Under the pieces are notes generated by a model. That model did no database searches. It saw only the letters and a list, made by a program, of their open reading frames with translations, and had not been told where the DNA came from. Below, one piece after another: positions 16,486 to 51,225 of a stretch of DNA of 51,225 nucleotides (position 1 is the first letter of the stretch; every line of letters begins with the position of its first letter). Source of the DNA: Paraspadella gotoi (lineage: Eukaryota; Animalia; Chaetognatha). Where the stretch lies: positions 11,331 to 62,555 of the forward strand of contig JBJCIZ010000065.1 of the NCBI GenBank assembly GCA_051294375.1, in the 5' to 3' direction. A program made the position numbers and the translations under genes.

Positions 16486-16510
16486 NNNNNNNNNNNNNNN
16501 NNNNNNNNNN
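16486..16510. other. Assembly gap (25 N)
   Basis: Run of N. Confidence 1.
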
Positions 16511-19425: not shown

Positions 19426-21708
19426 ATGGGAAAGAGACGATCGGCAGCGGCGCGGCTTCTCGCTTTAAAAGACAACGTTCAACAGCCGCCTTCACGAGAT
19501 CTCGGATATGAGAGAGATGGTGTCCGTGTCATCGTCGTTGACTCCGATCTACAAGATTTGGATGTCGACATCGGCGATCTTCCTCCTCATCGTGGTTCTA
19601 AGAAAAGAACTAAAACTACCGATAAAGACCGTTACCAGATCTACGAATTCGAACGAGAGCGACGTCGAGTCCGCTTAGAGACTATTCCGTTAAAATCGAT
19701 CGACTTCGCACGAACCTTCGACGAAGCACAACGTCTTGCATCGGATTTCTTACGTCTCGCGAATGACGTTACTGATTCTTTCTGGCCCATTGGTTTCGAC
19801 TTCGAAGGTGACGACGCCATGGTCCAACTCGCGTCGGAAATCGGAGGTTAACGTAAAGTCGCCGTCTTTCAACTTCGTTCCGGTGTCGGCGACTCTTGCT
19901 GTAAAGACGGCCCACCTCCTGTGTTGGTGTCAATTTTGACCCACCCATTCGCTTTCTTCATCGGCAAAAGCGTCCAGAAAGATATCGATTCTATCGCCAA
20001 ATTTCTCGGAGTTTCGTTCGCTGACCATGAGAAGATTAAGTACATCGACATCGCGAGTATGTACGGCTTTTGCTACAACCACTCTAGAGGTCCCTCCCCC
20101 TTATTGGATTGAGTTTCCTCGATGACCTTTTTCGGCATCTTGGGAGCCCCTTCTCTTAAATATCTCCATCACTTCGTCAAACCAGAGTCAATCCTCGACA
20201 AACGCTTATTCCATCGGAACCATCTTGCGGATTTTGATGAGCGCAAATCTCTGGTCAAGCCCCCACAGATGGATGCACTCGTTAGTCTGCAGACAGCGTC
20301 CATGCTCTCTGACCGTATTGGGTTGCGCTTGGCCCCTCTTACAAGCCGGTTCTGATTCGAATACTTACTACTGTCACTCGTTAAAATCCATCGTCTGCGC
20401 TATTTCGACAAAGTCAAAAGAGAGAAAAATATAAGCGTACTCATGTTAAGGCAAGAGACTTTATCTTGAATCTCAACGCCAACGATCGCGACGATTTCGT
20501 TTGTCATTTTCTTCGCGACGGCGGTTTCGGACACGGCCGTCTTCATGCGCTGTGTCAACTCAAGTTTTACTGTGTCCCCGTATTTACTCTCTTGGATTTT
20601 TTCTTACGTCAACCCTGGGATTCGAAATCACTTCGCCTCGTTATTTCTAATTTCGCTTCGCCAGATATCGCTCTGGTCATTCGCTTCGTTTTAGCGAATT
20701 GGGAAAACCACGACATCCTTCGGTTAAAAATCCAAGAAATTCCCCATTTACGTGTTCCAGACGAAAACTTCCATGACCTCTTCAAATGTAACGCAGTTTT
20801 GCGCTTCATCGAAATTTGTTCAGAATAGAAAAATTTACCTCTCTCTCGCCGTTTTGTCGCTCTCAACGCACAACGAAAAATTGAGCCAATCTTACGCGTC
20901 TATATCTGCGGTGAGATTGAGCAACAGGATGTATATGCTTTCTGCATCCAATTTAGTGATGGTGACGACTTCGTCTTCGAAAAATGTGCGACTTTTATCG
21001 CGGAGAGTCATCCCTCCCTCGCGTCTTTCCTGATCAAAGCTCGAGGCGGAAGAAGCGGAAAACTCGATGATGAACGCCATTTCGAACCAAAGTGTTATCT
21101 CTCCTTTAATGCCCGTCTCCACAGTCTTGTTCCAGACCGCGGAGAGGGCACAATCATTAGCGAAAGGAGTGACATTTTTTATTTCCAGCGCGAATTGGAA
21201 AAAGTATGTTATTTCACGGTGCTTTCTCACTAATTTCCTCACTTTTCGCGTAAATCGGCGCGTATACCATTACTCTCCGGTCTTTGCTCGTCGATTATGG
21301 CACGTTTTGCAAACGTATTTACGAAATTAGGCGATAGATCCGTTTTCACGTTCCAGAGTAGACGGATTTGCGAATTCTTTGATCGCCAACTTCACTGGTC
21401 CCCCTATCACATTCTCGACGCCGCGGAAACTTGCAAATCTCACGGCCTTGTTCCGACGATTGATTCATTGGCGGAATTCGTCACAGAAGGAAAATTCTGC
21501 CGCCGTGGTCTTCATTTCAGCGGAGAAGTGGTCCCTTCGCTCCAGGCACTTCGCCATCGTGCGATATTTGTGTCTCTTGTCCAGTTATTCTGCGAAAAGA
21601 CAAGTATTTTTGATTCGTTTCGTGCCATCGAAAGGAAAAGAAGACGTGACGATTCCCCTGATCGATCCCCTTCTCGAAAGCGACGCTGAGCGGGACGCTC
21701 AGTTTTAA
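19426..21708 (+). pseudogene. Accessory ORF with an N-terminal DEDDy (RNase D/WRN/EXD-like) 3'-5' exonuclease domain (~19770-20310) and an unrecognised C-terminal region
   Basis: Reading through in-frame stops at 19849 and 20110 gives PIGFDFEG (ExoI), MVQLAS..VAVFQL, PPVLVSILTHPFAFFIGKSVQKDI (ExoII), KYIDIA, SLKYL..ILDK and PPQMDALV (ExoIII Asp; Tyr missing). Acceptor-like TTTCTCTACAG at 19331. Confidence 0.8.
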
Positions 21709-22244
21709 AAAGGGGTAAATATCTGTTGGACATAAACTCTTGTCATGATCCGTCGTTCTTATTCGCCTTTTGTAAAACTGTTTGAAAATATAAACAATCG
21801 ATGTTTGTCTACAAACAATACAGTTCATTGTTATTTCATTGCTTTGATTAATCATGATTCTATTTCATACAGATCGCATTAATGTTAGTTGGCCATCGTC
21901 GGGGTTTATTTGTGTGGTTTATTTATGTGGTTTATTTATATGGTTGTTTATTTAAATGGATATTGGTTCATACAGTTCATTTGATTAGTGGCTAGGCCGA
22001 GCTTACTTGAGAGATCATTGTTGTTTCTATCGTTAACCGATGCTTTCCTTTTGCTTACCTCTAGTTCTTGATCTCTAAAGACTCATGAAATCCTGTGTTA
22101 TAGATACTCTCAGAAGGGTGAGCAACTGACGGAAAACCCCGCTCATCACGATTTGGTTGAACAGTATAATTTGTATTGAAAATAAACAAATATATTACAG
22201 TTGGCGGCGAAAGACGCCGCTTTCCTGACGGCGCCGCCCGTCAA

Positions 22245-22760
22245 TTAGACGCCGGTTGTGGGCGTGGCTGCTGCGGTACGTTGGGGCATCTTTGAGTCAC
22301 GTGATCTTTCATTCTTTTTCCGTCTCTTGGCGCCGGAAGTCGATTTGATTTCTTCTGTCGAAACATCACTGAACCATCTGGCCAGATGTAAGGTTGAGCA
22401 GTTTGCTGTGTATGGCGCTTGTTGGGGCCGGGGCTGCGCTGGGGCTAGCGCTTGGATCAGCGGCTGGCTCGGGGGCTGGATCTGCTGCCGAGCTTGCGGC
22501 TGCAATGGAACCAATGCGGAAAATGCTGTTTGCTGCAGCTGCTGCTTCGTCGCTCGCTGAGCCTTCCTGTTGGCGGCGTTGATGACATGGAGCCACATGA
22601 GGTGCTCTCGGAACACTTTCATCTCTTCATCTTTTGACGAGCGGGAGTGAAAAGGCGGCGGCGTCTCTCGCCTTGCGGTAAACTTCAATTCCTCGTTTTT
22701 AATTTTTCTCTCAAGGATCGTATTTTGTTTCACTACATCGGCTTTTGTCGCGTCCGCCAT
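22245..22760 (-). CDS. Antisense 171-aa ORF (charged N-terminus, Gln/Pro-rich centre, basic KRRKK tail)
   Basis: Intact ATG-to-stop ORF in an AAAATGG context, in a GC-rich island between the exonuclease ORF and the PPT. Confidence 0.5.
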   Translation of the reverse strand: MADATKADVVKQNTILERKIKNEELKFTARRETPPPFHSRSSKDEEMKVFREHLMWLHVINAANRKAQRATKQQLQQTAFSALVPLQPQARQQIQPPSQPLIQALAPAQPRPQQAPYTANCSTLHLARWFSDVSTEEIKSTSGAKRRKKNERSRDSKMPQRTAAATPTTGV

Positions 22761-24504: not shown

Positions 24505-25050
24505 TCAACACCCAAAAAAGTACCTATCTTTACTTTCCATATAACGAGCACTCATAAAAAAATTATCTTGTTGATTTCCAAATGATTCACCACCTACTAC
24601 ATCTATGAATTTTTTTTCACATACTTTCATATTTGTAGGTTTTATTGGGGCAATACATCTTGTAGCATTATGTAATGATCTACAACCGAATGCACAACAA
24701 GCACAATGTTTTTGTCCCTGTCTTGACATAAACCAACCTTCTGGACATTTAGTGCATTTTGTCGCGCCATCATTTAATGATCTGGTTCCAGGTAAACATG
24801 CAAAACATGTCGTTTGCCCAATTTCATCATTGTAAGAGCCAGCAGGACAATTAACACATCGGCTCGCTCCAAAAATATAGTTGGACATTTTTCCTTTGGG
24901 GCAAACTTTTTTACAAGATGTGCTTCCCTTTACATCAGTATACTTTCCTTTTTCACAAGTTAGGCATGCAAATCCTCCATCTTGCGGTTGATATTCACCC
25001 ACTGGACATAAAGTACATTTTGAGTTTTCTGGTGTCACTTTTTCATAAAA
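24505..25050 (-). CDS. Terminal exon of a Cys-rich protein with GCC2/GCC3 (ephrin-receptor-like/TNFR-like) repeats
   Basis: Repeated CxxCPxGxY...GxxxC motifs (CTLCPVGEYQPQDG, CVNCPAGSYNDEIGQTTC, CTKCPEGWF). TTTTTTTCAG acceptor at 25051, phase 0, open to the stop at 24505. Confidence 0.8.
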   Translation of the reverse strand, partial: FYEKVTPENSKCTLCPVGEYQPQDGGFACLTCEKGKYTDVKGSTSCKKVCPKGKMSNYIFGASRCVNCPAGSYNDEIGQTTCFACLPGTRSLNDGATKCTKCPEGWFMSRQGQKHCACCAFGCRSLHNATRCIAPIKPTNMKVCEKKFIDVVGGESFGNQQDNFFMSARYMESKDRYFFGC

Positions 25051-25452
25051 CTGAAAAAAATATTAAAGTATATTTTGATAACAATTTTTAAAAATTTTCA
25101 GTAAAACTACACATATTTAGTGACTCTCTTTCTCTTACTTTCTTTCTCTAACACTCTCTTCCTCTCACTCTTCCAGCAAACTCCTTTGACATCTATGAAA
25201 GTAGGTGCATTAAGTGTGCTCCGTCACCCATCGTGCATACATTTCGCGAATCGACCTGTCATCCGAGCGCGAGAGACAAATGTCTGCCCGCGGTTCCATC
25301 CTCGGCGAGAACAGACATTTTGGGATGTGTTAGAGAGAGAGAGAGAGAGAATGAGAATGGCTGTGTCTCTTCCATCCCGGCGTAAACAGACATTTCGGGA
25401 ATCGAGCTGTCATCCGCGCGCCTTGGGCTATGGTGCCCCTATATTTTTTCAA

Positions 25453-34891: not shown

Positions 34892-35004
34892 TTGGCCTAG
34901 GGAGTGTAGACTCAGATCCAAGAAGATTTTAAAACGAGACTAAGCTGAAGTTTTAATCACTTTGCAAGATGGACGTTTAAAACGCAATCGACCCGATAAG
35001 TAAT

Positions 35005-35556
35005 TTGTTTTGGTTTCACTACAAAAAGGAATATTATTTTTACTTAAAAATTCATCATAAATTATGTCTGCTTTTGGGCGTCATGTCCGTGGAGGAGGAC
35101 AGCAAGACTCTTTTCACCCTATTAGGATCGCTTAAAAAAGCCGACTCCTTCGATTACGAAACCGAGGAGGGTAAAATTATTAATAGACCATTCAAAGAAA
35201 AACAGGTCATTTCCGAAACGGCTTGCCAGGGCATGGATCATTTTTTATACAGAAGTCAGGTGCAACTGATCGACGCCTTCGCCGTCTATTGCTCCGCATC
35301 CAAGGACGTCATTTACGGGGATAAGTTGACAAATATTTTACGGGTGGTTTTTCTTCAAGGCAAGGCTAATGAAAGAACCGTACTCAGTTATCCTTTTCCA
35401 CAATACATTCCTATCAGATCGAACACGATCAAAGAGATATCTATTCAGATACGCGATTTGTACGGAAATCTCATAGATTTTATGACACCTTTCATCAGAG
35501 TTAAATTAATATTTAAAAAAAGATATCTGGGGCTTACCAACGATGCCTCTCTTTAG
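35005..35556 (+). CDS. Polinton minor capsid protein (penton), C-terminal part
   Basis: AVYCSASKDVIYGDKLTNILRVV...YPFPQYIPI...IKEISIQIRDLYGNLIDF...VKLIFKK matches the Polinton penton C-terminal pattern (VYCD..GD..LLR..P.YVP..I.I.IRD..G..I.F..V.LHF). Confidence 0.85.
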   Translation: MFWFHYKKEYYFYLKIHHKLCLLLGVMSVEEDSKTLFTLLGSLKKADSFDYETEEGKIINRPFKEKQVISETACQGMDHFLYRSQVQLIDAFAVYCSASKDVIYGDKLTNILRVVFLQGKANERTVLSYPFPQYIPIRSNTIKEISIQIRDLYGNLIDFMTPFIRVKLIFKKRYLGLTNDASL

Positions 35557-36036
35557 TCCCCTGCGTCTCGCCAGGAGAAATCAGTTAGGATCCGGATTTG
35601 GTTCCATCCTGAGATGCATAGGCAACTCGTATTTACTACCGGCCCTACGATCGTTACTTCTCGTCGGAAAGAAGGCTATGAAGAATCTGGCGGAAGAGGG
35701 GATAAGAGCTGGGGGTCAGATTTTAAGCGACGTAGCCCGAGGAAAAAATATGAAAGAGAGTTTGACGCAAGCGAGTAAAGACACTATAAAAAATATTAAA
35801 AAAATAGCTAGCAAAAGAGGGAAGGAGGCCCTGACGAGAGCGGGCAGGGCTATAAAAGCCCGCGCCTTTGGACCGACCGGCAGTAGAGAGCCCAACGCGA
35901 CCGGAGCCGGCAAGGAAAAAATGAAAAGTAAGAGTAAAAAAGTTAAAAAAGGTCTTTGCGGACTAGGAGGCGGAAAGAGAAAAACAAAGATAAAAAAAAA
36001 GCAAAAACGGGGAAAAGATTTTCGATTTTTGACTAA
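35543..36036 (+). CDS. Polinton pVII-like basic core protein
   Basis: QLGSGFGSIL...GKKAMKNLAEEGIRAGGQILSDVARGKNMKESL plus a Lys/Arg-rich tail. The expected stop (IFDF*) is one base out of frame, fusing it to the MCP ORF. Confidence 0.75.
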
Positions 36037-36043
36037 GGGGAAA

Positions 36044-36484
36044 ATGGCGCTAGCGTTGATGGAACACTCGACCACGACGTGCGTGGACGAAGGATTGAAC
36101 GTGTTCGACAAGAGCATAGTGGATCATCAATACGACAGCACTTACTTTTTAGAGTTGAAGCCTCAAATTCCTCTCGACTCCAAGTCTTCCCAGATCGTCT
36201 TCAAGCGGGAACCCATGAACGAATTCATCGAGTTCGGGGATTCCTACATGAAACTTCACGTTAAGAACACTAAGGTGGTTTTGCGCAGATACCGACGGCC
36301 TCAATTTTTAAAAATTTGGATATTCGGTTAGGAGGACAGTTTCTAACGGTGCAGGATAATTGTCACAGGTATACGTCGTGGTTGACCATGTTGATGAATA
36401 TGGATCAGCAATGGTTGAGAACGAAGGGAAATTTATTAGGCTGTTATTACAAAAGTAACCCCAGTACTAACCGAGCAGACACGG
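36044..36484 (+). pseudogene. Polinton major capsid protein (double jelly-roll/hexon-like), N-terminus only, truncated
   Basis: MALALMEHSTTTCVDEGLNVF...YFLELKPQIPLD...IVF...FIEFGDSYMKLHVK, then after a frameshift IPTASIFKNLDIRLGG...HRYTSWLTMLMN. This matches the Polinton MCP N-terminal pattern. Confidence 0.8.
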
Positions 36485-37255: not shown

Positions 37256-37411
37256 CTTTTAAGATGAAGTTTAACAAATCAAATTAAATAAAATTCGAAT
37301 TCACATTTTTCAATTATAAATAATTTTATGTAGTCATAAACAATTTAGAGTTCTAAGTTCGTTTTATATTTTGTTGTCACTTGTCTTATTTTTTATTTCA
37401 CATGTACAAAA

Positions 37412-39929
37412 ATGGCAATTTCCATGGCAAACTTGAACGCGGAATTCGATGCCATCGACTTGTCCGATCCAACTGCCGAGGGATCCTACAACATCATCCA
37501 CGCCCTCTCCAATCTCATCCCTCGTTACCGCAGTTTGGGGGAACCAGGGCAAAATAAAGCGGATGAAATCCTCTCACTCATCGAAGCCAAGCGAGAGCAA
37601 CTCAGGTCGGCGATGAAGCTAACGAAAGATTCAAAAATAAGAGACTCTCTCAACGATTCTGTGCGCTTTGCCCAATTCACCATCCGACGTCTGAAAAAAG
37701 CTCAAGCCCCGGAGGCAACTTCGGGACTTCTCGACGCTTCAGAGGATGAAACGGATCCAAAGAGTATTCTCTCTCCGGCACGGGAGGACAGTCGTAAAAA
37801 AATGTATACGGAATTAAAAGACATGGCGAGTGCCCTGACTTCACGCCTTGAGGATTCGTCAATCGATCTCACCACTCCGGACACAGCCCATTCAAATCTC
37901 AAAACCAAAGACGGATCTTGGGACGATCAAGGTTTCACGACTTATTGTGATCAACTCAAAGCCGTACAGGAATTGAAGAATCAAATAGAAAGAATGAGCT
38001 CTCATTATGACGAAGAGGTGAAGAAGAGAAAAAGGGAAATTGATCATGAGATGGAGGTTATGGAAAAAACCAGATCAAATGGGTTAAAGGAATTAGACGA
38101 TAAAATCAAAAGTGAAGAGGAGAAGGCCCAAGCCTTAAAAACTCCTATTATACCTCAGGATTTCTCGACTCCAGAAGCTTCTGAAGATGATGATTAGCGA
38201 TGATGAAAATCAAGAAGAAGAAGAAGTCCAATGGGATGTAGTCGGTATGGACGAGTTCAGACAATTTCAAACCGAACTATCACAAATCCTCTCCAATTTC
38301 AGCACTCGTATTGACCAAAACACTAGGCTGGCAATTGAAGCTGATACCAAAGCATCTAATCAAGCTCAAGCCAATGATTGCAAATGTTTAAGGATCATGG
38401 AAGAACAAAACAAACGCATCAAGGCTCTCGAAAAGGAGGTGAAAAGACTTCAGACAGGTCAAGGAGATAGAAGAGTTAGCTTTGGAGGCACAGCCATTAA
38501 ATGTATCACTCCACCGCTCTCTTCAACACTTATCCAACCTCCACAGTCTCTACCACCCCAGCTTGAAGAAACTATGAATGCTTCACCAATCCAGCACGAA
38601 CCAAATCTAAACTCCAATCAAACAGAACCAGGTCAACCTGCCGCAGCTGCTCCAGCCGCTCTAGCTGCTCAGACCTCTTCAATAAATACAGAGGCTCTAG
38701 TGGCTCAATCCAAAGAGCACCCTTTTCTCCAAGCATTTGTGGAACAAAATAGAAAGGTTAATATGCTTAGAACTGTGGAGCAGGGAAGACCTAAGGCACT
38801 TTTTGATGGGGAATCAAAACAAGTGATATTTGAACTACACATGAGGTCATATGAAACTATTATGCAAGAAGCTGAGGCCACAGACAATGTCAAACTCCAC
38901 GAATTAGAACATTGGTTCAAAGGCTTAGCTTACATGAAAGTAGCCAAATTCACTTTTAGACCTGACAAAGAACAAGTATTTAAAGATGCCATCGACACCC
39001 TTAGGAGAGAGTATGGAAAGAAAGACGCCAACGTTCACGACATGCTTCGCGATGTCCTCAGCAAGGCTAAAGTCCCACCTGGCAACAAAACAGAACTGGA
39101 CAAGCTCGCTACCGAGCTGGAGAACGTCAAAGCCATGGCAGATGAAAATGGAAAAGGGAAGGATCTTGACAAGGACACCGTCATCAGTGAGATTCTTGAT
39201 GCCCGATGTGAACATCTTAAAATGGACTTTGCTAAGAAAGACGCCGATCATCAAATGGAAAAAGGGATAAAATACAACTTTGAGGAATTCATCAAGTTTC
39301 TCAAGACCCGTATTCTTCTGGAAAAGGGCGCCTATGCAAAAACAGGAAAAAAGAAGCTAACTATTGATGTCCCAGCCATGGACTCCAACAATCGGGATGA
39401 AAACGACGGGGGTCAGAAATCTCCAAGGAAATCTCCTCAGACTTCTCCAACAGCCCGTCGAGCATCTCGGAGCTTAAGAGCAAAGAAAGAAGACACAGAC
39501 GTTGCGTCTTTCTCCATCGATCCATGCAATTTCTGTCAAGGCAATCATGCAATGGAGGCTTGCAAAACATTCAAAAGGCTCAATGAAACTGAAAAGGGAG
39601 AGCTAATTAAAAAAAACAAAATTTGCACCCGTTGTTTTGACACAGGCCATAAACCAAAAACGTGCGATTTACCTGATGTTCAATGCATTATCTGTGATGG
39701 AAATCATGATACCTTCTTCCATGGAGTGTCATTCCCAAAGACTTACCAACCAAACAACACTAAAACCAATTCAAGCCACAACCAGTCACGCCAAAGTTCC
39801 CAAGGTCGACCTCAACAGTCTCGCAATCAGCGGACTACCACACTCAACATTACACCACTGCCCAACAACAATTCCTACCGCACCCCACCACGCCCAAATC
39901 CTCCCGAATTGGAAGGAGGGCAAGCATGA
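37412..39929 (+). CDS. gag: BEL/Pao Gag (coiled-coil N-terminus, DUF1759-like region, three Cys/His knuckles); frameshift at ~38190
   Basis: LFDGES...KLHELEHWFKGLA...DAIDTLRREYG; CNFCQGNHAMEAC, CTRCFDTGHKPKTC, CIICDGNHDTFFH. Confidence 0.9.
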
Positions 39930-42900
39930 CAAGTCTGCTATTCTGGGGTAGGGGGGGCATATAGACCAATAGTCCCAGTGGTCGTTGAGCATTGTGGACG
40001 ACGGAAACAGACCTATGCCATGATTGATACTGGAGCCAGCCGATGTGTAATCCAAGAATCCATAGTCAGAGAACTCAAAATGATAGAGAAGGAAGAACAC
40101 ATGAGAGTTAGATCCTTTGACTCAATCACTACTGGCAGCAAACGACTTGTGGATATGAATTTGGAAAATATTGAACAGGACTTTTCAATCAGCTTAAGAG
40201 ATTGCATGGTTGCCGATCTGCTTACCACTGAAGACGAATTTCCTCCAACAAATGCTGAAATACAAGGATATTCGCATATGGAAGGAGTCAGCTTTCCAGA
40301 ACTTCAACACAGAGAAATTGAAGTGCTGATTCCTGCGACACTTTCCTACACCTACACAGCAGGAGAAACTCGTGAAGGACCAACGGATCAACCAATAGCC
40401 AAATGTACTGACTTTGGCTGGACACTGATGGGTCCAAGAAGCAGCATGAAAGAAGAAGATTTGGATTGCGCAAATATGGCTTCAGAATTTACAGAGGAAG
40501 ATGAGAAAACTATTCGAGATGACATACAAAGACTCATCAACATGGATTTTGAAGCCACGAATTCAGCAAAACTCAAACCTTCTCTTAATGATGAATACGC
40601 CATGCATCAGCTGAAGTCCACAATCAGATTTGATCCCGACATTGGCCACTACGTGGTCGGACTCCCCTGGAAAGAAGGCAGGAAAAAATCAGCCCAAATC
40701 CTAAACTCTAGAGACTCTGGAGGCATGGCTCTCAATCGACTTAACTCCCTGATGCGCAAGCTCAACAAAGACCCATAAATGAGAGAAAAGGTCTGGGAGG
40801 AAATCAAAAAAAAATGAAGAAGTACCTGAAGGCATTCCAAAGTGGGTTCTCCCACTTCACGTGGTCATCCGCAAAGACATGAACAAAGTCAGGGTTTGTC
40901 ATGATGCTCGAGCTTCAGTTAAAGGAAAATGCCTTAATGACGAGCTTTTGACTGGACCTGACTTGATGAACAGTTTGATTGCCATCCTGCTTCGTTTCCG
41001 ACGTCACAAGGTCGCGATCAACGCCGACATCAAAATGTTCTTCCATCAGGTCTTCATTGACGAGGATGATGTACACGTCTTCAGATATTGGTGGTGGGAG
41101 GACAAGGAGTGCACCAAGCTCGCCTTGTTCGAGCTGAAGGTTCATATCTTTGGAGCAACCTCCTCCCCAGTCGCCGCCAACTTCACTCTCCACACCCAAT
41201 CCCTCAGAGGAGAATTCTCTGATGAAGTGATTGAGGCAATCCTCAAAGCTTTCTACGTCGATGACTTCATCAGCTCCGTCCCGGATGCAGAGACGGCAAA
41301 AAAGCTGAAAAACGACTTGGTCAAAGCTATGGCTAAAGGAGGATTTGAACTTGGCAAGTGGAAATGCTCTGACCCTTCGGTTTTGGAAGAGAAGGAGACT
41401 ACAAGCCAACCTTTATCATTTGAACAACGAGAGTCTTCAACTACAGCACCAGCCAATTAAGTCCAAGAGACAGCTTCTCTCCATGACTGCAAGCTTATAT
41501 GACCCTCTTGGACTGATCTCACCCTTTGTTTTAAGAGGACGGATTCTATTCCAAAAAGCTACTGCTCTAAATTTGGGCTGGGATGAAATTTGACCCAATG
41601 ACCTTTTGCTAGAAATTAACGCCTGGATGAGCGAGCTCCCTGAGCTAGAAAAGATCAACATTCCCCGATGGATAGCCACGCCGGAAACTACAAATGAACC
41701 TCCAGAACTCCATTTTTTTTGTGATGCTTCAATTGACGGCTATGGAGTCTCAGTCTACAGGAGGGCATGTTCAAAAGGCGGGGGCGATCCTCATGTTGCT
41801 TTTCTTTTCTCAAAGGCAAAGGTCACTCCATTGGATTCAGTCAAAACAGGTCACCATAACTGTATCCCAAAACTAGAATTAACAGCCGCCAGATTAGCGG
41901 CAGAGATTTGCCAGATGATCATTGAAGAATGCCCAAAAGAAAACTTTGCAAAAATTGTTATGTGGACTGATAGTGAAACTGTCCTCAAACAAATCCGTGA
42001 TAGAAAAACAAGGTTCAATGTCTTCATAAAAAATCGACTATCTCGAATTCACGAATTCACAAATGTTGAAGACTGGAGATATGTACCAACCAAAGAAAAC
42101 CCAGCCGACGATTGCAGCCGTGGGCTAAATGTGAAAGACGAAAAGTGGAAAAGATTCCATCTGGGTCCAGCTTTTCTAAAGCTTCCAGAAGAGGAATGGC
42201 CTGCCAATACGGTGGAGATGGAACCGCTTCCATATGATGTAAAGATATGCTCCATCAATATTAAAATCTATGAAACTGCCAAACACGAGCCAAACGATCA
42301 TTGGGCTATCCGGATTGCAAAGAAAACGGGTCAATACTTCCGCAAACTTAAGCTTATTGCAAGGTTTGAAAAAGCGGTAAAAACAATGTTTCGTCCAGAC
42401 TTTTCTGAATCTAAAGAAAAAGGCCAAAGAATCTCTCAAACCGATATTGACCAAGCTGAGAACACTCTGATTAAAGCATTACAAGCTGCTTACTACGGAA
42501 AAGAGCTCAAAGAATTGGTTAAGAAATCTGTCTTCACACCAAACAGCTCTTCAGAACTGAATCTCAAGAATTCCACTCTCAAACATCTCGACCCCTTCAT
42601 CGATAGGAACGGAGTCATGAGAGTAGGGGGGAGATTAAGTAATTCCGACTTACAATATAACACGAAATTTCCCATAATTCTTTCCAAAGAAGATTCCATA
42701 GTTCAAAATTTAATCCGTTTCAAGCACATAGGTGAGTGTCACTCAACCACCAACCAGACTATCACGACAATCAAAAAAAAATATCACATTCCATCAATTC
42801 GTCAACATGTAAAAAAAAATGTAAACCGATGTATCACTTGTCAAAAAAACCGGAAATCTCCAGCGATGCAAAAAATGGCACCGCTACCGGAAGAGCGCCT

Positions 42901-43813
42901 AAAAAAGGGCGCCCCATTTGAGATTACCGGCGTCGACATGTTTGGACCCTACAAGATCAAAATTGCTGGACGAGCAGTTCATAAACGATGGGTTGCGCTA
43001 TTCACTTGCCTCCAAGTTCGAGCCGTCCATTTTGAAATACTTGACGATATCTCGAGCTCATCGTTCATCAACGCCCTCATCCGTTTCAACTCGCGCCGAC
43101 CAGGATCAAAAAAATTCTTCAGTGACAACGGGACGAATTTCCGTCGCGCTGATATCGAGCTCAAAATCGCCGTTGAATCTTGGCAAAGCGAGGAAACTTG
43201 CAATAAAATGATTGAATATGGAATCGAATGGACTTTTGGCCCTCCAAATGCTCCACACTGGGGCGGAGTCTGGGAAAGGCTAGTTCAATCGACGAAACGA
43301 CATCTCGATTGTGTCATCAAAAAAGACAATCTTCCTCTAGAAACCTTTTCCACGTTTCTCATAGCCGTCGAAGGAATTATGAATCGACGCTCTCTCACTC
43401 CATCAAGCGACGACGATTAAGACGCTCTCACACCAGCTGATTTTCTCTATCCTGGAGTCTATGCTGGTTCTCGCCCGGTCATTGTCCCTCCTGAATCCCT
43501 TTCAGGCGATGATCTTAGAACCGAATGGAAAAGAGCGCGAAGACTCATCAAGGAATATTGGAAGAGGTGGTCTGAAGAATATTTAACTACACTTCAATCC
43601 AGAGAAAAGTGGACAAAAACAGAGGAAAACATCAAAGTCGATCAACTCATTTTAATCGTCGATGAAAATCTCCCAAGAGATGAGTGGAAACTTGGTAGAG
43701 TTGATAGCGTGGCTGAGAAAAATGGTCATGTAAGACGAATGATTATTCGTACAGCCAATGGAAAATTCTTTGAAAGAGACAGAACAAAGATTGTGGCTCT
43801 CGAAGTTGACTGA
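39930..43813 (+). pseudogene. pol: BEL/Pao Pol: aspartic protease, RT, Pao-type RNase H, integrase, C-terminal DUF5641-like domain (several stops and frameshifts)
   Basis: YAMIDTGAS; KVRVCHDA, LNDELLTGPDL, DIKMFFHQV, FGATSSP, FYVDDF; YDPLGLISP; HFFCDAS, IPKLELTAA, WTDS, NPADDCSRG; GVDMFGP, SDNGTNF, GGVWERLV; WKRWSEEYL..LQSREKW. Confidence 0.95.
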
Positions 43814-44170: not shown

Positions 44171-44691
44171 ATCAACTCGTAGCTTAGTCAATTAGTCAAT
44201 TAGTCACTTGGTCATTATGTCATTTTAGTCACGTTTAGTCATTTAGTCATTACATCATTATGTCATTACTTTTTTACGTCATTTTATATCGTTTTAAGTC
44301 AAATGTCCAATGCTTATTGTCTGGGTAATGTTTAGTCATGTTTAATCCTTTAGTCATTACGTCATAACGTCATTTACGTCATTTTATGTCATTGTCATTA
44401 TGTCGTTTTCTGTTTAGTCATGTTTAGTCATTACGTCATAAAGTCATTTATGTCATTGTCATTATGTCGTTTTCTGTTTAGTCATGTTTAGTCCTTTAGT
44501 CATTACGTCATTACGTCATTTACGTCATTGTCATTATATCGTTTTCTGTTTAGTCATGTTTAGTCCTTTAGTCATTACGTCATAACGTCATTTATGTCAT
44601 TTTTGTCATTGTGTCATTATGTCGTTTTTCTGTCATTTGATTTTAATAATAAAAAAAAAGTTCAAAAAAAAAAAAAAAATCAACTCGTAGC
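44171..44691 (+). repeat. GTCAT-rich tandem array ending in poly(A), flanked by a 13-bp direct repeat (ATCAACTCGTAGC)
   Basis: Direct repeats at 44171-44183 and 44679-44691; A-tract 44651-44679; internal ~50-65-bp higher-order units. Confidence 0.85.
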
Positions 44692-44822
44692 ACATTGGTT
44701 AATATTGGTTTTTATATTGCCTTTTATTTTTCACTAGTGCCCTGATATTCTCTCGAAACCTTTACCTTGTTCAAACTGAACAATTTTGATTCACTTCAGA
44801 ACTCTTTTCTACTCAATAGAAG

Positions 44823-45552
44823 ATGATGCCAACACCAAAATTCGACGATTTCTGTGGTGCCCGCTACTATGTTGAAGAGGAGGGTCACGCAATCATGGTC
44901 GGCGGTCACCGCACCGTTGCCATTGAACTCTTCCCAACGGCCACTCGGAACAAGGAATCCCTTCTCTGGCTCGCCCGCCTCAATTTCCTCAATCGGAATC
45001 CGGAATATCGTTTTCTAACCAACGAATCGGAGGAAGGAGTGGACGAGCTGATTGGACCATAGATTGAAGCTTCATGGAATGTGATTGGCATCGATATCCA
45101 AGGACGACCAGCAAAGGCGATGCAGGCGTGGCAACTGCTCCAGTTTGAAGCACCAAAGTTCGCGATGCTGCCGAAGGACATGTTCCTCAACCTCAGCCCA
45201 ATCCAACGGAAAAGCGATCGTGTTCTCGATGAATTTCTTCGTCGGGATCGTGAATCAATGGACCAGGCAATTTCCGAACTACCTGCCGTCATTGCAAAGT
45301 CAAAAGAGATCGAGCACAAGCGCTTTGGTAATAGTTTGGACTGCTTTCCAACCGCCACCTCGTCCCCAAAACCCACCGTTCCAGGTGGAGGAATACAGAG
45401 AGATGGAAACGCCTTGTTCTAATTTTTGGCGCGATTTGGGCAAGTTGGCGCCGTGGTTGGATATCAGTAATTATTATCTCGACCACCCCTTGTTCGTCAA
45501 CGCTTTTCCGAAAACCCGAAAGATTCTGCTGGCTTACCGAGAGAGAAACCGG
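44823..45552 (+). pseudogene. Accessory ORF 3' of BEL integrase, unknown function (one in-frame stop, one frameshift)
   Basis: TTGATTCACTTCAG acceptor ~24 nt before the ATG. ORFs 44823-45062 and 45081-45422 are in the same frame, continue in the 45085 frame, and end at a GTGAGA donor-like site. Confidence 0.55.
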
Positions 45553-45659
45553 GTGAGAGTCGGATTTTTAAAGGTATTTTTTCCCCTTTTTTTTCCTGTT
45601 GGTAACGTGGTCTGTGGCCCTCAAAAGATGACGGATAGAGAGCTGGATTATGCATAATC

Positions 45660-45963
45660 TGTCTAATTAGTATTTGAAGTTACCTGAAATAATTGTAGAT
45701 TGCCCAAGTTGTAAATGTAATTTAAACCATGATAAAATATTACGTCTTAATCCCTTGAATCTAAAAATGGAATGCACTTAATTCTCTGCCTCCTTCCCGT
45801 CTCTCTTCCTTTGTTTATCTAATTCACTAAATGTTTACAAAATAAGAGCCGAGCTCTGAGAATCTACAGGATATTAAACTTTGAGACTAAGAATATTTAG
45901 AGAGACAAAATTTGAAACTAAAAGTTAATTACTAAATGGAGGCTAATTAAAATATTACTGACA
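45660..45963 (-). repeat. 3' LTR of the minus-strand Gypsy element (~304 bp; alternative end ~45597)
   Basis: Begins TGTCAGTAAT directly after the PPT and ends ...ATTAGACA (TGTC...GACA termini). Confidence 0.6.
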
Positions 45964-45973
45964 TCTCCCCCCC
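45964..45973 (-). promoter_or_regulatory. Polypurine tract GGGGGGGAGA
   Basis: Reverse complement of TCTCCCCCCC abutting the TGT LTR start. Confidence 0.75.
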
Positions 45974-46437
45974 AAAACAATTTTTTGTAACAGGCAGGTA
46001 AAAATAACAATGTGTACAAATGATCACATGTAAAGCACTAGCACAAATAATCACAATAGTTATAACAGTATTACAATTGATCACATATAGCTAAATATAG
46101 GAAAATAAATCAAGAACGAAAATAAATCGACGCTGCATTTAAAATGAAATCGTAGCGAAATATAAAATTGTTTTGAGAACGAATCGAACTGTCGGCCAAA
46201 CAGTTCGAGAAAAGTTACAATTAAATCAATCTTATTTTGGATCCACACAAAACATAAACAAACATTCACAAAAACATTCACACCGCAATATCTCGATCGT
46301 CCATCGTTCGAATCATTCGCTTTCGATCTATTTTCGATATCTCATCAAATCTTATCGCTTTGATTCAAATCGACCTGATTGGTTCGTCTAGTCGTTTCAA
46401 TAAACCCATCTTCGCTCTTCCTACTCCTGAGCTCGAA

Positions 46438-47622
46438 ATGGTAAGTGTGACGGATAAGTTCAGTATCCTCTTCGAAAGTGCGCAAATTATAATTAAGAAT
46501 TTATTTCCTAAAATCGAATAAAACTTTAATTTCCGATAGCAAATTCCCATTTCTTCAATCAATAATGATTTTCATAATTGCACTTTTGTTTTTAAATGGC
46601 CTTTCGGAGACGAGCTCAGACGTGCTGAGCCCAGAGGAAGGGCTCGCATTGCTGTGCCGGCAGCCTCAGTTCGCTGAGGCCGTCGAGTGCCGCAATGTGG
46701 CTCTTCCGACGGGCGACGCCGTCTTTTTAACGGCGGCGGTCGGGGCGGCGACGACTCCGAATTTAATTTCGAGTTCGACGCCGTCTTCGGTCGTTCGCTC
46801 GTACGCAATGACGGCTCTAGAGAAGGTTTTAGTATCGATCGGCGGCTGCATAGGAACATATATCATTATCGTTTTTGTTTTGCGTTTCGGCGCAAAGATG
46901 GGTTGGGTTGATGCCCTCACCCTGGCGGCCAGTAGAGGGAGGGGGCCAGGTGCCAGGTGTGTGTGGCATGTCTACCAAAACCCGGAAGTGCCCGATAACG
47001 CTAGAGATGCAGTCGCGAAGGGTAAGAGATTCAGATGTCTAAGTTAACTATACTTCGATAGAGCCAGAGCGGGTTTTTACAAATGAATTTTAAATATCGA
47101 TTTGGTAAGAATTTTCATAACCTTAATTCAGAAAAATTTTTTTTCGTTTCAGTCTGCCGCGCCCTTTTACACGCTTCTCACCAAACTCGGATGGAAATAC
47201 GGGAAATCATGTTCGATTCCCGTCACGTCACAGGGTGTTTTCGGCATCTGTCAGCCCGACCATTCGACGCTCTCTTTGGTCGTTCTTGTCACGCTGTCTA
47301 TCATCTGTCTAGCCTTATTCATTGGCGTCGTCGTTCAGCAATGTCGTCGTTGCGTCGGTAAGTGACAGGTGCAAATTAATTCAGTGCTAACATGCAAAAT
47401 TTTGACCAACCATTGAAAAATGAAATTATGCAAATAGATCGTGCAGACAGATAGTAAAAAGGGTGCAAACAATTTGTGTATTCAGGAACGTCAAGTTCAA
47501 AGTATCGTCTGTCGGTCCCTTCTCTGCTCAGTCATCGCAACAAAAATAAGAAGCGTCCGGTCGCGCCTCAGCGCAAATCGAAAAACCAAATCGTCGACAT
47601 CGAAGATCATTCCGAAGTCTAG
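46438..47622 (+). CDS. Multi-exon gene for a signal-peptide and transmembrane protein, antisense inside the Gypsy element
   Basis: Introns 46441-46539 (ATG|GTAAGT), 47022-47152, 47358-47485 and a 3'UTR intron 47623-47727; AATAAA ~47811. Signal peptide MIFIIALLFLNGLSETSS; hydrophobic helices VLVSIGGCIGTYIIIVFVL and LSLVVLVTLSIICLALFIGVVV; basic tail. One or two 1-bp frame corrections are needed. Confidence 0.7.
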
Positions 47623-47979
47623 GTGAGAAAACATAAAATGTAAATATCTCGACCTAAATATAATCAATCGACATATCAATCGTATTATTCAATATTTTTA
47701 TTGCTAATATGTCAAACCATTTTCAGGTTGGTTGACTTCGATCGACAACATGACAACATGCATGTTATCATACCAATTTGTTAAGATATCGAATATCAAT
47801 ATTATCCATGAATAAATTTTCAAAGTAAAATTCCTTCTCATTTCGATATGATTTAAATTTAAAGTAAGATTATTCTTCTTTCAATGTGATATTTAACATC
47901 GATAGCTATCCACCGAAATTTATTTAATTTTTCTAAGTGAATCAATTCTATGTCTTTTGTTTACTTCAATCGTCGTCGA

Positions 47980-48624
47980 CTAGCGACGTTTGACAAAATT
48001 CGGCCAATCCAGTTTCTTCCACCCAGCGAAACGCGTGGAGCCCAGTACCCAAATCGGTCGTTCCCGGAACTGCTGGTCGGTATCACAAAACAGTAGGCGA
48101 TCAATGAGTTCCGCCAGCACCCGCGACCCTTGCGCGTTCAGGTGAGTTCGGTTGGCGTCGTACAAATTATTGTCTAATACTAATCGGCCGTATCTCTTTG
48201 TACGGAAACAGTTTTGCAATCCGTGTGAGTGCATGACGTCCATCTTGTACAATCTACTATCGATCTCGGACGCAGCTTGATTGAACGATTGCTTCCCATT
48301 TTTAAAATCCCGATTAATCAGTGACATAGTTATTATTCTCATACCCTGAAAACGGCACGCTGCTTCTTTTATAAAGAAGTCCAACTTATTGATGTAGTCG
48401 TCCGGATCCAGTTTCGGCGCCAAATCATTTCTGCCTCCGAGGAAAACTAAAGCTCGATAACGGATTTCGTTGCGGGCAGAGCTTCGAAGAAATGCGTGAA
48501 GCGGCCTCCACTAATTGCTGTTGTCGTCGTCCAGGGATGCAACCGTGAAGCCGGCTCACGTGACTATCGCCCAGGACCCAAAATTTGTCCGCCGCATTCT
48601 TGTCGACCGTCACCTTTTTACCAT
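47980..48624 (-). CDS. SGNH/GDSL-type hydrolase (esterase/lipase fold) accessory ORF, frameshifted in the 5' part
   Basis: Block I WVLGDSHV, block II AISGG, block III VFLGGRND, block V YDANRTHLNAQG. TTCTGTTCACAG acceptor at 48640, just upstream of the ATG. Confidence 0.85.
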
Positions 48625-48762
48625 GAAGCTGGTAAGTCGCTGTGAACAGAATATATTTTTTTTATTAATATTCGGTCATACGGTGAATCATTTTTATTTA
48701 TGTTTTTCACCGATTTGATTAAAATATTAATCACTATTAATTTTAATAATGATTTGATTCGC

Positions 48763-51225
48763 TCATTCTCTCGATACATGAGAACGAATAATTTGACAAA
48801 TAGGAAGTAGTATTTTCGTATTATCGATAATGTTTTGTACTTTATACATCCCGGTTCCCACTCTCTCTAATACCTCATAAGCGGCGACGATTCGCTTCTG
48901 TAATTTTTTATTCATATTTGTTGCAAACGACATTCGTTTTCGAAATACTATGTCTCCCTTGCTTAAAGCTTCGGTTTTATCTCGAGGATTTAAATGTTGC
49001 TGATATGATAATAAATTTTTATATGCCGCAAAACGAATTTCCCGGTGCATTTCTAATAACATATTAAAATCCTCTTCTACAGCCTTACGCCCTTCTAATG
49101 GATCGATCTCCGGCGTCAGCGTCTTCATCGCGTGTTTCCGGGTTACCTGGAATGGACTCCTTCCCCCTAACGAGACGCATGGACTCATGTTTATGGAAAA
49201 CTCAACCTTCCGCAAAATATCGGACCATTTTCGTAAGTCAGGTTCTTTATCTAACCATTTCAAAATTCGAACCAGACAGATTTGATTTAATCGTTCCGAG
49301 TAAGGTTGATGTCTGCTGACGTACGTACTTTGTTGTACTTGTACTCCCAGTTTTCTTAAAATAGTTCGATCAACTTTCCGTTGAGTCACGCATTTACCAT
49401 CGATCGAAACGCAATCCCAAATTCCGTGAGATTCAAACATTTTCAAGAATGCATGAGCGACATCTTCAGCCGAAGTAGATTTTATCGGTATTAAAAAAGA
49501 CTCCCTACTATAGGCGTCTCTGGCTGAGAATATATATTTATATCCCTTTGAGTTTGTTATCGGGCCCAACAAATCACAGGAAAGTATTTGTCTCGGTGCG
49601 AACGGCATTTTAGTCGATGGTTTTTCTTTTACTGTCGGTTTTATGTTATAACTCACACAAACATGACAGCTTCGAATTGCGTCAGTAATTCGTCGTCTCA
49701 TTCCAGGTGTATAGTACATTGTTGACATTATTTTAAAAACGGTATTGTAGTTACAATGTCCGTAATCGTGGTGTACTTTCTCGGCCATTTCGATCAGTTG
49801 CTTAGTATCTACTAATATTAATTTATCGACCATACCATTTTCCTTAACAAATAACCTAAAAATAATTTGCTGGCTATTTATTTTGAACAGCGAAATATGT
49901 CGTAAGATCGTTAAGTCATGTGACTCTAATTGTAGAGCGTCGCTCTTCGATGGCCGAGTTTCGTTGTTTATGATCCAAGATTTCCACCTTTGTATTTCAG
50001 TCGAGTCGTTTTGTAATTTTAGAATTCTTTCGCTTCCTATTTGTGAAAGCGTCGGCAATTCTATATTTTCGAACTCGACTTCTTCGATTTCGAGTTTAGG
50101 TTTGTTTGCTAATAAATCATCGGTCGAAGTGACGTTATCGTACACTTTTCTTTTGTATCGTTTAATTGATATATGTATTTACAGCAGCAGGAGCAATGCT
50201 CCGATGCTTCACCATTTAGTCCTTTACATTTACACCTCTCGCAGACCTTTACCTTTGAAACCTCTCGCAAACCTTTACCTTTGGAAACCTCTCGCAAACC
50301 TTTACCTTTGGAACCTCTCGCAAACCTTTACCTTTGGAAACCTCTCGCAAACCTTTACCTTGGAACCTCCAAACCTTACCTTTGTACACTGCCATCCTGC
50401 AGGGGATTCGTTTGCTTCTGAGTTTCAACCCCTGAGGTGCAGCGGATTCACCTTTAGATCCAGGGCCCAAAGATTCTAAAGGGAATATTTCTGAGTCATC
50501 TGAATTTAATTTTAAAGTTTTAGATATTTTTGCCAAGGGCCCTCTTTTCCCCTTTTCAAAAAATAAATTCATCTCGTCTCTTTTGTCCTTTGAGAACAGG
50601 TTTTCATTAGGGATAACTCACCCTGTGAATTTCGAATAATCGAATAATAATATCGCGAAAAATATTTTTAGCCTCTGACATTTTCGAATTACATCGTTCG
50701 ATTCCAAACTCCTTGATAATTGATCCGGCGGGCATTAAAGGTCGTACCCGGCTATGGAACGAACAATAATATTAAACTCTTGTATGTAATTCAAGGCACG
50801 GGCGACTCTTTCGCTTATAATATCCATACTAAGCCAGTATGAAACTACCCTAGAGTCGACAAAAACATGAGTTTTACAACCTAATAAATAATGTTTAAAA
50901 TGTTTAAGCGATTCGAATAACGAGAACAATTCTTTAAGACAGATCGGCAATAACAAATCGTTATTAGCAAAAGATTTCGAATAATATTGTAATAAATACA
51001 TTCTTTTTTCGTCAGGATCCGCACCCTGTAAAACTTCCGCATCGGACGGACGCTGCAGCTGACACAGTACGCTGCCAAGTGCCGTGCGACTCGCATCGGT
51101 AAAGAGAACGAAATCCTCTTCCTCTATCGGAGCTCTCAGCACTCCCGTCCGATCGTCTAGCAAAATCTCGATACAGCGGTGAAAAGCTTTCTCCTCTTCC
51201 TCGCCCCATTTGAAACGCACGCTGC
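48763..51225 (-). CDS. pol: Gypsy pol: RT thumb/RNase H (51220-50735), linker, integrase (50145-48763); frameshifted
   Basis: FKWGEEEEKAF, FVLFTDAS..ALGSVLCQ, YYSK, KELFSL, FVDS; HHDYGH...CHVC, LSCDLLGP, RDAYSRE, PYSERLN, SINMSP...SPFQV. Confidence 0.92.
50233..50385. repeat. 27-bp tandem repeat (~5.5 copies) inside pol, between RNase H and integrase
   Basis: CCTCTCGCAAACCTTTACCTTTGGAAA units; they encode SKGKGLREV (or FPKVKVCER) on the minus strand. Confidence 0.9.

What the first reader, a model, noticed from the sequence alone, without database searches (positions are those of the whole stretch)
45964..47820. Intron-containing antisense membrane-protein gene inside a Gypsy element, at the env position
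Seen: between the SGNH ORF and the PPT/3' LTR of the minus-strand element lies a plus-strand gene with four GT-AG introns and its own AATAAA. It encodes a signal peptide, two hydrophobic helices, Cys-containing segments and a basic cytoplasmic-like tail. Established: introns antisense to a retroelement's genomic RNA survive retrotransposition; antisense ORFs are known in some plant Gypsy elements, whereas env genes are normally sense and intronless. Inference: this is a captured or bespoke spliced membrane protein (entry, egress or host-interaction factor) that travels with the element. It does not resemble a recognisable env.
Basis: partly seen in the sequence, partly recalled or inferred. 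Interest (0 to 1): 0.82.

Follow-up and report, generated by a model that had tools for sequence, protein, structure and literature searches.

The report
Backward spliced membrane genes in retrotransposon
A many-copy jumping gene carries, on its opposite strand at the place where a retrovirus keeps its envelope gene, an intron-containing locus with signs of protein-level selection that likely makes two small membrane proteins, one of them predicted to be built like viral cell-fusion proteins, which would let the element pass directly between cells.

Summary
The locus is real and belongs to the element. A minus-strand Gypsy element (RNase H, integrase, SGNH-like ORF, PPT, LTR 45597-45963, not 45660) carries a plus-strand locus with four GT-AG introns. 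Sister copies hold it: one contig at about ten times single-copy depth joins it to SGNH and integrase. Copy differences favour the predicted frames (11 of 17 silent; 2 of 11 indel places coding). One RNA-like data set removes intron 3 exactly. The evidence fits two products better than one two-helix protein. A (exon 2, about 159 aa) has a signal peptide and one helix; eight full-length relatives stop at about the same place. B (exon-1 ATG plus exons 3-4, 114 aa, intact) has a 40-residue ectodomain with a Cys pair, one helix, juxtamembrane Cys and basic residues, like reovirus p10 FAST proteins. No homology, exon 1-3 junction or fusion activity was shown. Antisense ORFs and sense sORF2 fusogen-like ORFs are known; nine literature searches showed no spliced antisense membrane gene in an LTR retrotransposon. 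The scan earlier noted a spliced antisense enzyme gene in another genome.

The parts
45597..45963 (-). 3' LTR, 367 bp, TG...CA
   Evidence: loose ends at 45597 (1 contig of X6, PBS-type start in element orientation) and 45963 (3 contigs of X6); single-copy flank contigs end at 45623-45625 in X1, X2, X5
45964..45973 (-). polypurine tract
   Evidence: sequence
46147..46437 (+). AUG-free leader / likely promoter and 5' UTR of the antisense locus; TATA-like box at 46161
   Evidence: 0 ATG against 2.8 expected, P about 0.06; TATA-like motif; start site not shown
46438..46440 (+). ATG directly before donor 46441, in phase with exon 3; predicted start of product B
   Evidence: junction to exon 3 not observed
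   Evidence: acceptor base 46539 altered in the X6/X8 contig, length of 46540-46564 varies among sister contigs
46565..47042 (+). product A: predicted signal peptide, Cys31/Cys42, S/T/A/P-rich stalk, one helix (about 84-110), tail ending S-x-V; about 159 aa; frameshifted near 46997 in this copy
46636..46707 (.). 31-pair hairpin inside the A coding region
   Evidence: z -5.85 for 46600-46800; mean pair probability 1.0
47022..47152 (+). intron 2 as drawn; donor would fuse A to B, use not observed
   Evidence: a diverged sibling aligns to 47044, past the donor to the stop, and again from 47147
47153..47357 (+). exon 3: ectodomain with Cys pair, transmembrane helix and juxtamembrane Cys of product B
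47358..47485 (+). intron 3, seen removed exactly
   Evidence: table 5, X6 and X8 (one data set), depth 36.1, 28 letters on the short side; not listed for X4, X5
47486..47622 (+). exon 4: basic tail of product B, ends S-x-V, stop 47620-47622
47623..47726 (+). intron 4, in the 3' UTR (predicted)
   Evidence: diverged sibling stops aligning at 47624
47811..47816 (+). AATAAA
47980..48661 (-). SGNH/GDSL-like ORF, split over two frames in this copy
   Evidence: GDS, GxND and NxxH motifs; no Pfam, protein or PDB match
48763..50178 (-). integrase
   Evidence: Pfam Integrase_H2C2 E 2.6e-9, rve E 1e-5
50735..51223 (-). RNase H of pol, running off the window; out of frame with integrase in this copy
   Evidence: Pfam RT_RNaseH_2 E 8e-18; indels against sister contigs at 50134-50690

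Best explanation
This Gypsy family carries an intron-containing locus on the strand opposite gag-pol, between its SGNH-like ORF and the 3' LTR, which likely makes two small membrane proteins, one of them predicted to work like a FAST/sORF2-type fusogen that would help capsids pass between touching cells. Steps: (1) shown: sister copies carry the locus and their differences spare its reading frames; (2) established: introns on the opposite strand are not removed from the genomic RNA, so they survive retrotransposition; (3) shown in one RNA-like data set: intron 3 is spliced out; (4) inferred: a promoter between the PPT and 46438 drives a plus-strand transcript; (5) inferred: product A (exon 2, own stop) is a signal-peptide, single-pass protein with a Cys pair, a stalk and an S-x-V end, acting in adhesion or membrane targeting; (6) inferred: splicing of the exon-1 ATG to exon 3 gives product B, 114 aa, N-out/C-in, with a Cys-flanked loop, juxtamembrane Cys and basic residues; (7) untested: B fuses or opens contacts between membranes. 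My odds: element-borne coding locus 0.85; A and B separate 0.6; B fusogen-like in function 0.35-0.4. The window copy itself is a decayed one.
For: Multi-copy linkage: X5 contig 47659-49118 at depth 120.6 against 12.3 for the flank; X6 contig 47564-48108 joins exon 4 to the SGNH end; all 30 bins of 46400-47760 covered in 4 of 4 runs. Constraint: 11 of 17 coding differences silent against 0.30 expected, P 0.003 (the 40 best of 111 differences were shown); 2 of 11 indel places in the 59% that is coding, P 0.008 (12 of 26 rows shown). Splicing: exact removal of 47358-47485 in X6/X8; X6 lacks the LTR excess of the DNA-like runs (1.3 against 4.9-7.5) and has no flank cover. A: 9 relatives keeping C31, C42, the helix, W114, C132, P143; 8 of 8 with a full C-terminus stop 6-16 residues after the conserved Pro motif, as the window frame does at 47042, and 3 of 8 end S-x-V like the window; a diverged sibling aligns up to 47044. 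B: open 114-aa frame, ectodomain 40 aa, Cys21/Cys34, helix about 41-62 (hydropathy 3.1), Cys65/Cys68, 0 K/R in the 15 residues before and 4 in the 15 after the helix, matching the FAST attributes listed in PMC3961370 and the polybasic rule of the sORF2 preprint.
Against: No sequence or fold link of B to any FAST protein (Pfam; Foldseek best E 4.2); many small type III proteins share this build, and the Atlas leads (scores 0.78-0.82, weak) were an unnamed arthropod cluster, influenza M2, SMIM3 and coronavirus E. B lacks the myristoylation motif of sORF2 and has 12 rather than 11 residues in the Cys loop, to which p10 is sensitive. The splice evidence is one junction, one data set, 28 letters on the short side, from a run whose RNA status is a guess. 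Donor 47022 is a strong site in phase with exon 3, which favours a fused product at least sometimes. The relatives are ORF predictions without context, so a stop just inside an intron would look the same. One diverged sibling contig has a frame-changing indel at 46645 in A. In exon 3 one minus-strand frame is silent at as many sites (6 of 11) as the plus frame, though no minus ORF of 60 aa or more covers it.
Confidence: 0.4

Rival explanations
1. One protein of about 266 aa with a signal peptide and two helices is made by splicing exons 2-3-4, possibly cut later to free a B-like piece, as proposed for pistolvirus p33.
For: Donor 47022 fits the consensus and is in phase with exon 3 in the frame that carries the homologous end of A; read with X at the break the frame runs to the exon 4 stop; PMC12945298 describes putative FAST pieces released from signal-peptide precursors.
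Against: After a cleaved signal peptide and helix 1, helix 2 would have to point its basic side outward, against the positive-inside rule (established; charges). Relatives of A stop where the window's own stop lies. A diverged sibling stays alignable to 47044, beyond the donor.
Confidence: 0.2
2. The products are real element accessory membrane proteins but not fusogens: B works as a viroporin or trafficking factor and A as a receptor decoy or tether (superinfection block, host-defence modulation, capsid anchoring), like HIV-1 ASP or retroviral accessory proteins.
For: Atlas leads for exon 3 include M2 and coronavirus E (weak); both predicted products end S-x-V, a PDZ-binding pattern (pattern recalled), which points to scaffold binding; an antisense promoter allows expression apart from gag-pol; ASP is an antisense membrane protein of unknown role (PMC10186651).
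Against: B's ectodomain length, Cys-flanked loop, juxtamembrane Cys and basic cluster follow the p10 order of motifs; Gypsy elements are known to use FAST-like proteins.
Confidence: 0.27
3. A captured host gene rides along as a passenger; what is conserved is host-gene history or RNA structure of the genomic 3' region, not an element function.
For: Strong hairpins in exon 2; the indel at 46645 in one sibling falls in that hairpin and breaks A's frame; context of the relatives unknown.
Against: Silent-site and indel bias between copies of the element; diverged siblings about 12% apart keep exon stretches without gaps (table 8: 23 differences, 0 gaps in 192-202 nt) while introns stop aligning; no named host family matches.
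Confidence: 0.1
4. The gene is over-read: chance splice motifs and hydrophobic frames in a 3' non-coding region.
For: This copy is frameshifted; three of four introns were not seen spliced.
Against: Relatives at E 1e-9 to 6e-4; an exact junction; variant bias.
Confidence: 0.03

Closest known systems
sORF2/FAST-like proteins of insect Gypsy (MDG1 group) elements (bioRxiv 10.1101/2025.03.14.642691; passages and section 10 read, supplements not seen; PMC13486581 passages)
   Same: Env-less Gypsy element with a small single-pass N-out/C-in protein with a juxtamembrane basic cluster; some lie downstream of pol.
   Different: All 105 candidates there are in the gag-pol orientation and were picked by an MGxxxS/T myristoylation motif in unspliced ORFs; B is antisense, built from three exons, unmyristoylated, with a Cys loop, and sits beside a second membrane protein and an SGNH-like ORF.
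Reovirus p10 FAST proteins (PMC3961370, PMC12945298; passages read)
   Same: Size, about 40-residue ectodomain with two Cys around a moderately hydrophobic patch, one helix, membrane-proximal Cys, basic cluster.
   Different: No detectable sequence or fold match; loop of 12 rather than 11; C-x-x-C rather than adjacent Cys; fusion untested.
Antisense additional ORFs between pol and 3' LTR: maize Grande gene23, rice RIRE2, Silene Retand/TRP28, Botrytis Boty brtn (PMC7264820 parts 1-2 of 3; PMC11963269 and 10.1101/2021.04.13.439636 passages; the brtn primary paper not read)
   Same: Position, orientation, presence across copies, own promoter (shown for Grande).
   Different: Those described are nuclear or DNA-binding-like proteins of plants and fungi; no introns or membrane products were described in the text I read.
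Bdelloid rotifer Vesta ORF3 types (PMC5408684; part 1 of 5 and passages)
   Same: GDSL/SGNH esterase downstream of pol in LTR elements; other families carry short ORF3s with two hydrophobic regions and Cys.
   Different: The word intron does not occur in that paper and antisense occurs only for small RNAs; esterase and membrane ORFs are described as alternative ORF3 types, here they occur together on opposite strands.
Retroviral antisense genes HTLV-1 hbz and HIV-1 asp (PMC10186651; passages)
   Same: Spliced antisense transcript from the 3' end (hbz); antisense membrane protein at the env position (ASP).
   Different: HBZ is nuclear; ASP overlaps env; both are in vertebrate retroviruses that have env; no homology.

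Membership tests
Ty3/Gypsy LTR retrotransposon | RNase H followed by integrase in pol | tested here: met
   RT lies outside the window
Ty3/Gypsy LTR retrotransposon | PPT next to an LTR with TG...CA ends | tested here: met
Ty3/Gypsy LTR retrotransposon | two matching LTRs and a target-site duplication | not testable with these tools
   5' end outside the window; no genome held
FAST proteins (attributes in PMC3961370), product B | 95-198 residues | tested here: met
   114 aa, if exon 1 is spliced to exon 3
FAST proteins (attributes in PMC3961370), product B | single helix, N-out/C-in, ectodomain under about 40 residues | tested here: met
   predicted from hydropathy and charge; ectodomain 40, as in p10
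FAST proteins (attributes in PMC3961370), product B | fatty-acid site (N-myristoylation or membrane-proximal Cys) | tested here: inconclusive
   Cys65 and Cys68 follow the helix; modification not testable; no Gly2
FAST proteins (attributes in PMC3961370), product B | juxtamembrane basic cluster and a hydrophobic or amphipathic motif | tested here: met
   4 K/R in 15 residues; hydrophobic moment 0.52 at 10-20; helix 3-16 in a low-confidence model
FAST proteins (attributes in PMC3961370), product B | cell-cell fusion activity | not testable with these tools
   needs expression in cells
p10 subfamily of FAST | sequence homology, 11-residue cystine loop and conserved 9-residue motif | tested here: not met
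   no Pfam or Foldseek match; loop of 12
sORF2 of insect Gypsy elements | MGxxxS/T myristoylation motif and gag-pol orientation | tested here: not met
Retroviral/errantiviral env | sense-strand glycoprotein with large ectodomain, furin site and fusion peptide | tested here: not met
   antisense; ectodomains of about 65 and 40 residues; no N-glycosylation sequon; no Pfam or PDB match
[quoted passage not shown] | antisense ORF between pol and 3' LTR present across copies | tested here: met
   (contigs only; no piece spans the whole element)
[quoted passage not shown] | own antisense promoter | not testable with these tools
   contigs show no strand or start
SGNH hydrolase (neighbouring ORF) | blocks I (GDS), III (GxND), V (DxxH) | tested here: inconclusive
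   GDS and GxND present, NxxH in place of DxxH; no database match

The most novel reading that the evidence does not exclude
An env-less Gypsy lineage has built a separate, antisense, alternatively spliced operon-like locus that supplies a p10-type cystine-loop fusogen (B) and a partner adhesion protein (A), with a sense-strand SGNH esterase beside them: a three-part membrane kit for cell-to-cell spread, controlled apart from gag-pol and invisible to ORF-based screens. The nine divergent relatives of A would mark a widespread, unannotated class of such elements.
Probability: 0.3. Interest if true: 0.87.

Novelty: new variant of a known kind. Interest (0 to 1): 0.7.

Why it matters
Screens for retrotransposon entry proteins look for unspliced sense ORFs, and the sORF2 survey names non-myristoylated variants as outside its reach. 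A spliced antisense locus escapes them. If B is a fusogen, Gypsy elements have reached env-independent cell-to-cell spread by a second route, with a p10-like design, and the antisense slot can hold multi-exon genes with their own regulation. B is intact and 114 aa, so the question is directly testable. Even if it is not a fusogen, A defines an unnamed membrane-protein family, and the function of antisense ORFs in LTR elements is stated as open in PMC7264820.

Tried and rejected
No genome held. No RNA holder listed by record. Single-sequence word search of exon 2: 157 candidates, none at E 0.1. SGNH ORF: 12 candidates, none at E 0.01; PDB best E 0.47, unrelated. Loci scans all blank after tblastn: integrase in viral and metagenome contigs, P0001, alignments A3 and A4 in viral contigs, A4 in metagenome contigs; A1 had no usable pattern. 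The cluster look-up for the relatives could not be made, so their sources and context are unknown beyond 'ena' for P0004-P0009. Pfam on 10 A-family members: only weak, scattered hits, best RIFIN E 0.0045 in 3 of 10, rejected as helix similarity; A1 profile against PDB: 0 hits. AlphaFold of exon 2: pLDDT 54.6, pTM 0.29; Foldseek best E 0.76; exon 3 model pLDDT 67.4, Foldseek best E 4.2; Atlas: nothing for exon 2, weak leads for exon 3. A and exon 3 are not detectably related (hhalign probability 0.1). Junctions for introns 1, 2, 4 and exon 1-3 were not listed in contigs; contigs drop rare forms, so this is no evidence of absence. No Rfam match in the window. An early idea of a second coding break near 46563 was dropped, because that stretch varies in both directions among sister contigs. 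No large-database homology search was run for B (caps spent on A and SGNH). No signal-peptide or topology predictor was available; those calls rest on hydropathy and charge. Earlier-findings look-ups by place and sequence were blank.

Full report
Setting. The window ends inside a minus-strand LTR element. Pfam finds RNase H at 50735-51223 (E 8e-18) and integrase at 48763-50178 (E 2.6e-9), the Gypsy order. Downstream lies an ORF with GDS, GxND and NxxH motifs, split over two frames at 48661-47980. It has no match in Pfam, the protein collection or PDB, so SGNH is a motif-level label. A PPT at 45964-45973 abuts an LTR. Contigs of four public runs place the LTR at 45597-45963: single-copy flank contigs end at 45623-45625, and loose ends fall at 45597 (one contig, with a PBS-type start in element orientation) and 45963 (three contigs); the 367 bp begin TG and end CA. 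The 5' LTR is outside the window and no genome is held. Earlier notes on this genome call the host an invertebrate (unchecked).

The observation. The four GT-AG introns are there (46441-46539, 47022-47152, 47358-47485, 47623-47726), with 25-34% GC against 48-56% in coding exons, and AATAAA at 47811. G|GTAAG occurs 4 times against 0.25 expected. Exon 3 joins exon 4 in frame. Exon 2 does not join exon 3 in frame in this copy; the main sister contigs differ in length near 46997 in 4 of 4 runs, so the window copy carries its own frameshift, as it does in pol and SGNH. It is a decayed copy, about 4% from the deepest contigs.

Does it travel with the element? Nine of 11 listed runs, from three studies, hold part of the stretch. 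In X5 one 1472-nt contig runs from the antisense 3' UTR through SGNH into integrase at depth 120.6, against 12.3 for the flank; an X6 contig joins exon 4 to the SGNH end. All 30 bins of the locus are covered in the four runs. Depth of single contigs is only a rough guide to copy number and no piece spans the whole element, but the locus is clearly part of a repeated family, not a single-copy neighbour.

Is it coding? Of the 40 best-supported differences shown (of 111), 17 fall in the predicted frames and 11 are silent, against 0.30 expected (P 0.003; 4 of 5 in exon 2, 7 of 12 in exons 3-4). Of 11 indel places shown (12 of 26 rows), 2 lie in the 59% that is coding (P 0.008): the window's own break, and one at 46645 in a diverged sibling, which counts against A being intact everywhere. 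In exon 3 one minus frame is silent at as many sites (6 of 11), but no minus ORF of 60 aa covers it. Siblings about 12% apart keep 192-202 nt of exon 2 without gaps and stop aligning inside introns 1, 2 and 4. These rows are not independent draws, so the P values are indicative.

Is it spliced? X6 and X8, which look like one data set filed twice, hold a contig that removes exactly 47358-47485 (depth 36.1, 28 letters on the short side, under the 30 that the tool prefers); X4 and X5 list no such joint. X6 looks like RNA: its LTR bin is 1.3 times the internal median against 4.9-7.5 in X1, X2, X5, and it has no flank cover; its RNA status is still a guess, and an intron-less DNA copy is not excluded. 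No other predicted junction was listed. The acceptor at 46539 is altered in the X6/X8 contig, so intron 1 as drawn is doubtful.

What it encodes. An exhaustive search with exon 2 found 6 relatives (E 1e-9 to 6e-4) and a profile search 3 more, 22-35% identical, unnamed. They share a hydrophobic N-terminus in most, C31 and C42, a Ser/Thr-rich stalk, one helix, then W114, G125, C132 and P143. All 8 with a full end stop 6-16 residues after the Pro motif; the window has a stop at the same distance (47040-47042), 18 nt past donor 47022, and a diverged sibling aligns to 47044. The window and 3 of 8 relatives (two lineages) end S-x-V, a PDZ-binding pattern (recalled). This makes A a likely protein in its own right, about 159 aa. 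The caveat is that the relatives are predicted ORFs without context, and read-through into an intron would end similarly. Separately, the ATG at 46438-46440, the first after a 291-nt AUG-free stretch (P about 0.06), sits directly before donor 46441 and is in phase with exon 3. That splice gives B, 114 aa and intact here: 40-residue ectodomain, Cys21 and Cys34, helix about 41-62, Cys65 and Cys68, no K/R in the 15 residues before the helix and 4 in the 15 after, and again an S-x-V end. In an A-B fusion the second helix would need the opposite orientation, against the positive-inside rule (established knowledge). Donor 47022 is nevertheless a good site in phase with exon 3, so a fused form stays possible.

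Mechanism. B follows the attributes of FAST proteins listed in PMC3961370 (passages): 95-198 aa, single helix N-out/C-in, short ectodomain, membrane-proximal Cys, basic cluster, and in p10 a Cys-flanked hydrophobic patch. Putative pistolvirus FAST proteins have loops of 10-14 residues (PMC12945298, passages). Insect Gypsy elements without env use FAST-like sORF2 to move capsids from soma to oocyte (10.1101/2025.03.14.642691, passages and section 10; its supplements were not seen and may list further variants). I therefore commit to B as a FAST-like contact or fusion protein and A as an adhesion or targeting partner, expressed from an antisense promoter. This is an inference from build alone: Pfam, Foldseek and the Atlas give no link to FAST proteins, the models are poor, and viroporins share the build. 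B is not filed as p10 or sORF2: homology, loop length, myristoylation and orientation tests were not met.

Novelty. Antisense ORFs between pol and the 3' LTR are known in plants and fungi, with nuclear or unknown products (PMC7264820, parts 1-2 of 3; PMC11963269, passages). GDSL and short membrane ORF3s are known in rotifer LTR elements (PMC5408684, part 1 and passages). Retroviruses have spliced antisense hbz and membrane-bound ASP (PMC10186651, passages). All 105 sORF2-like candidates are sense. Nine searches of the open-access library listed no spliced antisense membrane-protein gene in an LTR retrotransposon; subscription papers and Repbase were not searched, and the brtn paper was not read. 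An unchecked note of this scan (e1-8585436) describes an intron-containing antisense enzyme gene in an LTR element of another genome, so the layout may recur.

Verdict. A real, element-borne, constrained and at least partly spliced antisense membrane-protein locus; a new variant of the additional-ORF kind. The two-product model is favoured at about 0.6 and a fusogen role for B at about 0.35-0.4. Interest 0.7; 0.87 if the fusogen reading holds (probability about 0.3).

Noticed in passing
window 46636-46707 and 48600-48799: A 31-pair hairpin inside the A coding region (z -5.85 for 46600-46800) and a second structured stretch between integrase and SGNH (z -5.1 on the minus strand) are the two strongest of 27 windows scanned. 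Role unknown: genomic RNA element, splicing control or small-RNA precursor.
   Followed up: partly
window 46564-46971: The window copy differs from the deepest sister contigs at 1 place in these 408 nt, against 4.1% elsewhere (16.8 expected, P about 1e-6). Recent gene conversion is my guess; selection on this copy is not excluded.
   Followed up: partly
window 46797-47251: A contig joint skipping 453 nt with 25 letters of the exon 3 start between, in X5, X6 and X8; perhaps a deleted derivative or a mapping effect.
   Followed up: no
window 50208-50380: Tandem 26-27-nt repeats inside pol between RNase H and integrase. A similar 20-nt motif seems by eye to sit at about 44750 in the flank; an ungapped check did not confirm it.
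   Followed up: partly
window 37349-43813: A broken plus-strand BEL/Pao element (Peptidase_A17 E 1.2e-21, Integrase_H2C2).
   Followed up: no
window 10799-22248: A 5.7-kb tandem duplication at 94% identity around an N gap, holding an integrase-like ORF (17311-18798, by eye; no Pfam hit); may be two haplotypes assembled in tandem.
   Followed up: no
window 34981-36331: ORFs that resemble Polinton core and capsid-type proteins (recalled resemblance; no Pfam hit for 35510-36331).
   Followed up: no
window 44820-45422: A single-copy reading frame with one in-frame stop just outside the LTR; unidentified.
   Followed up: no
window 24505-25062: Minus-strand Cys-rich repeat frame that looks like a host extracellular-domain exon (by eye).
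   Followed up: no
window 44181-44638: Degenerate short-unit satellite between the BEL element and the Gypsy flank.
   Followed up: no
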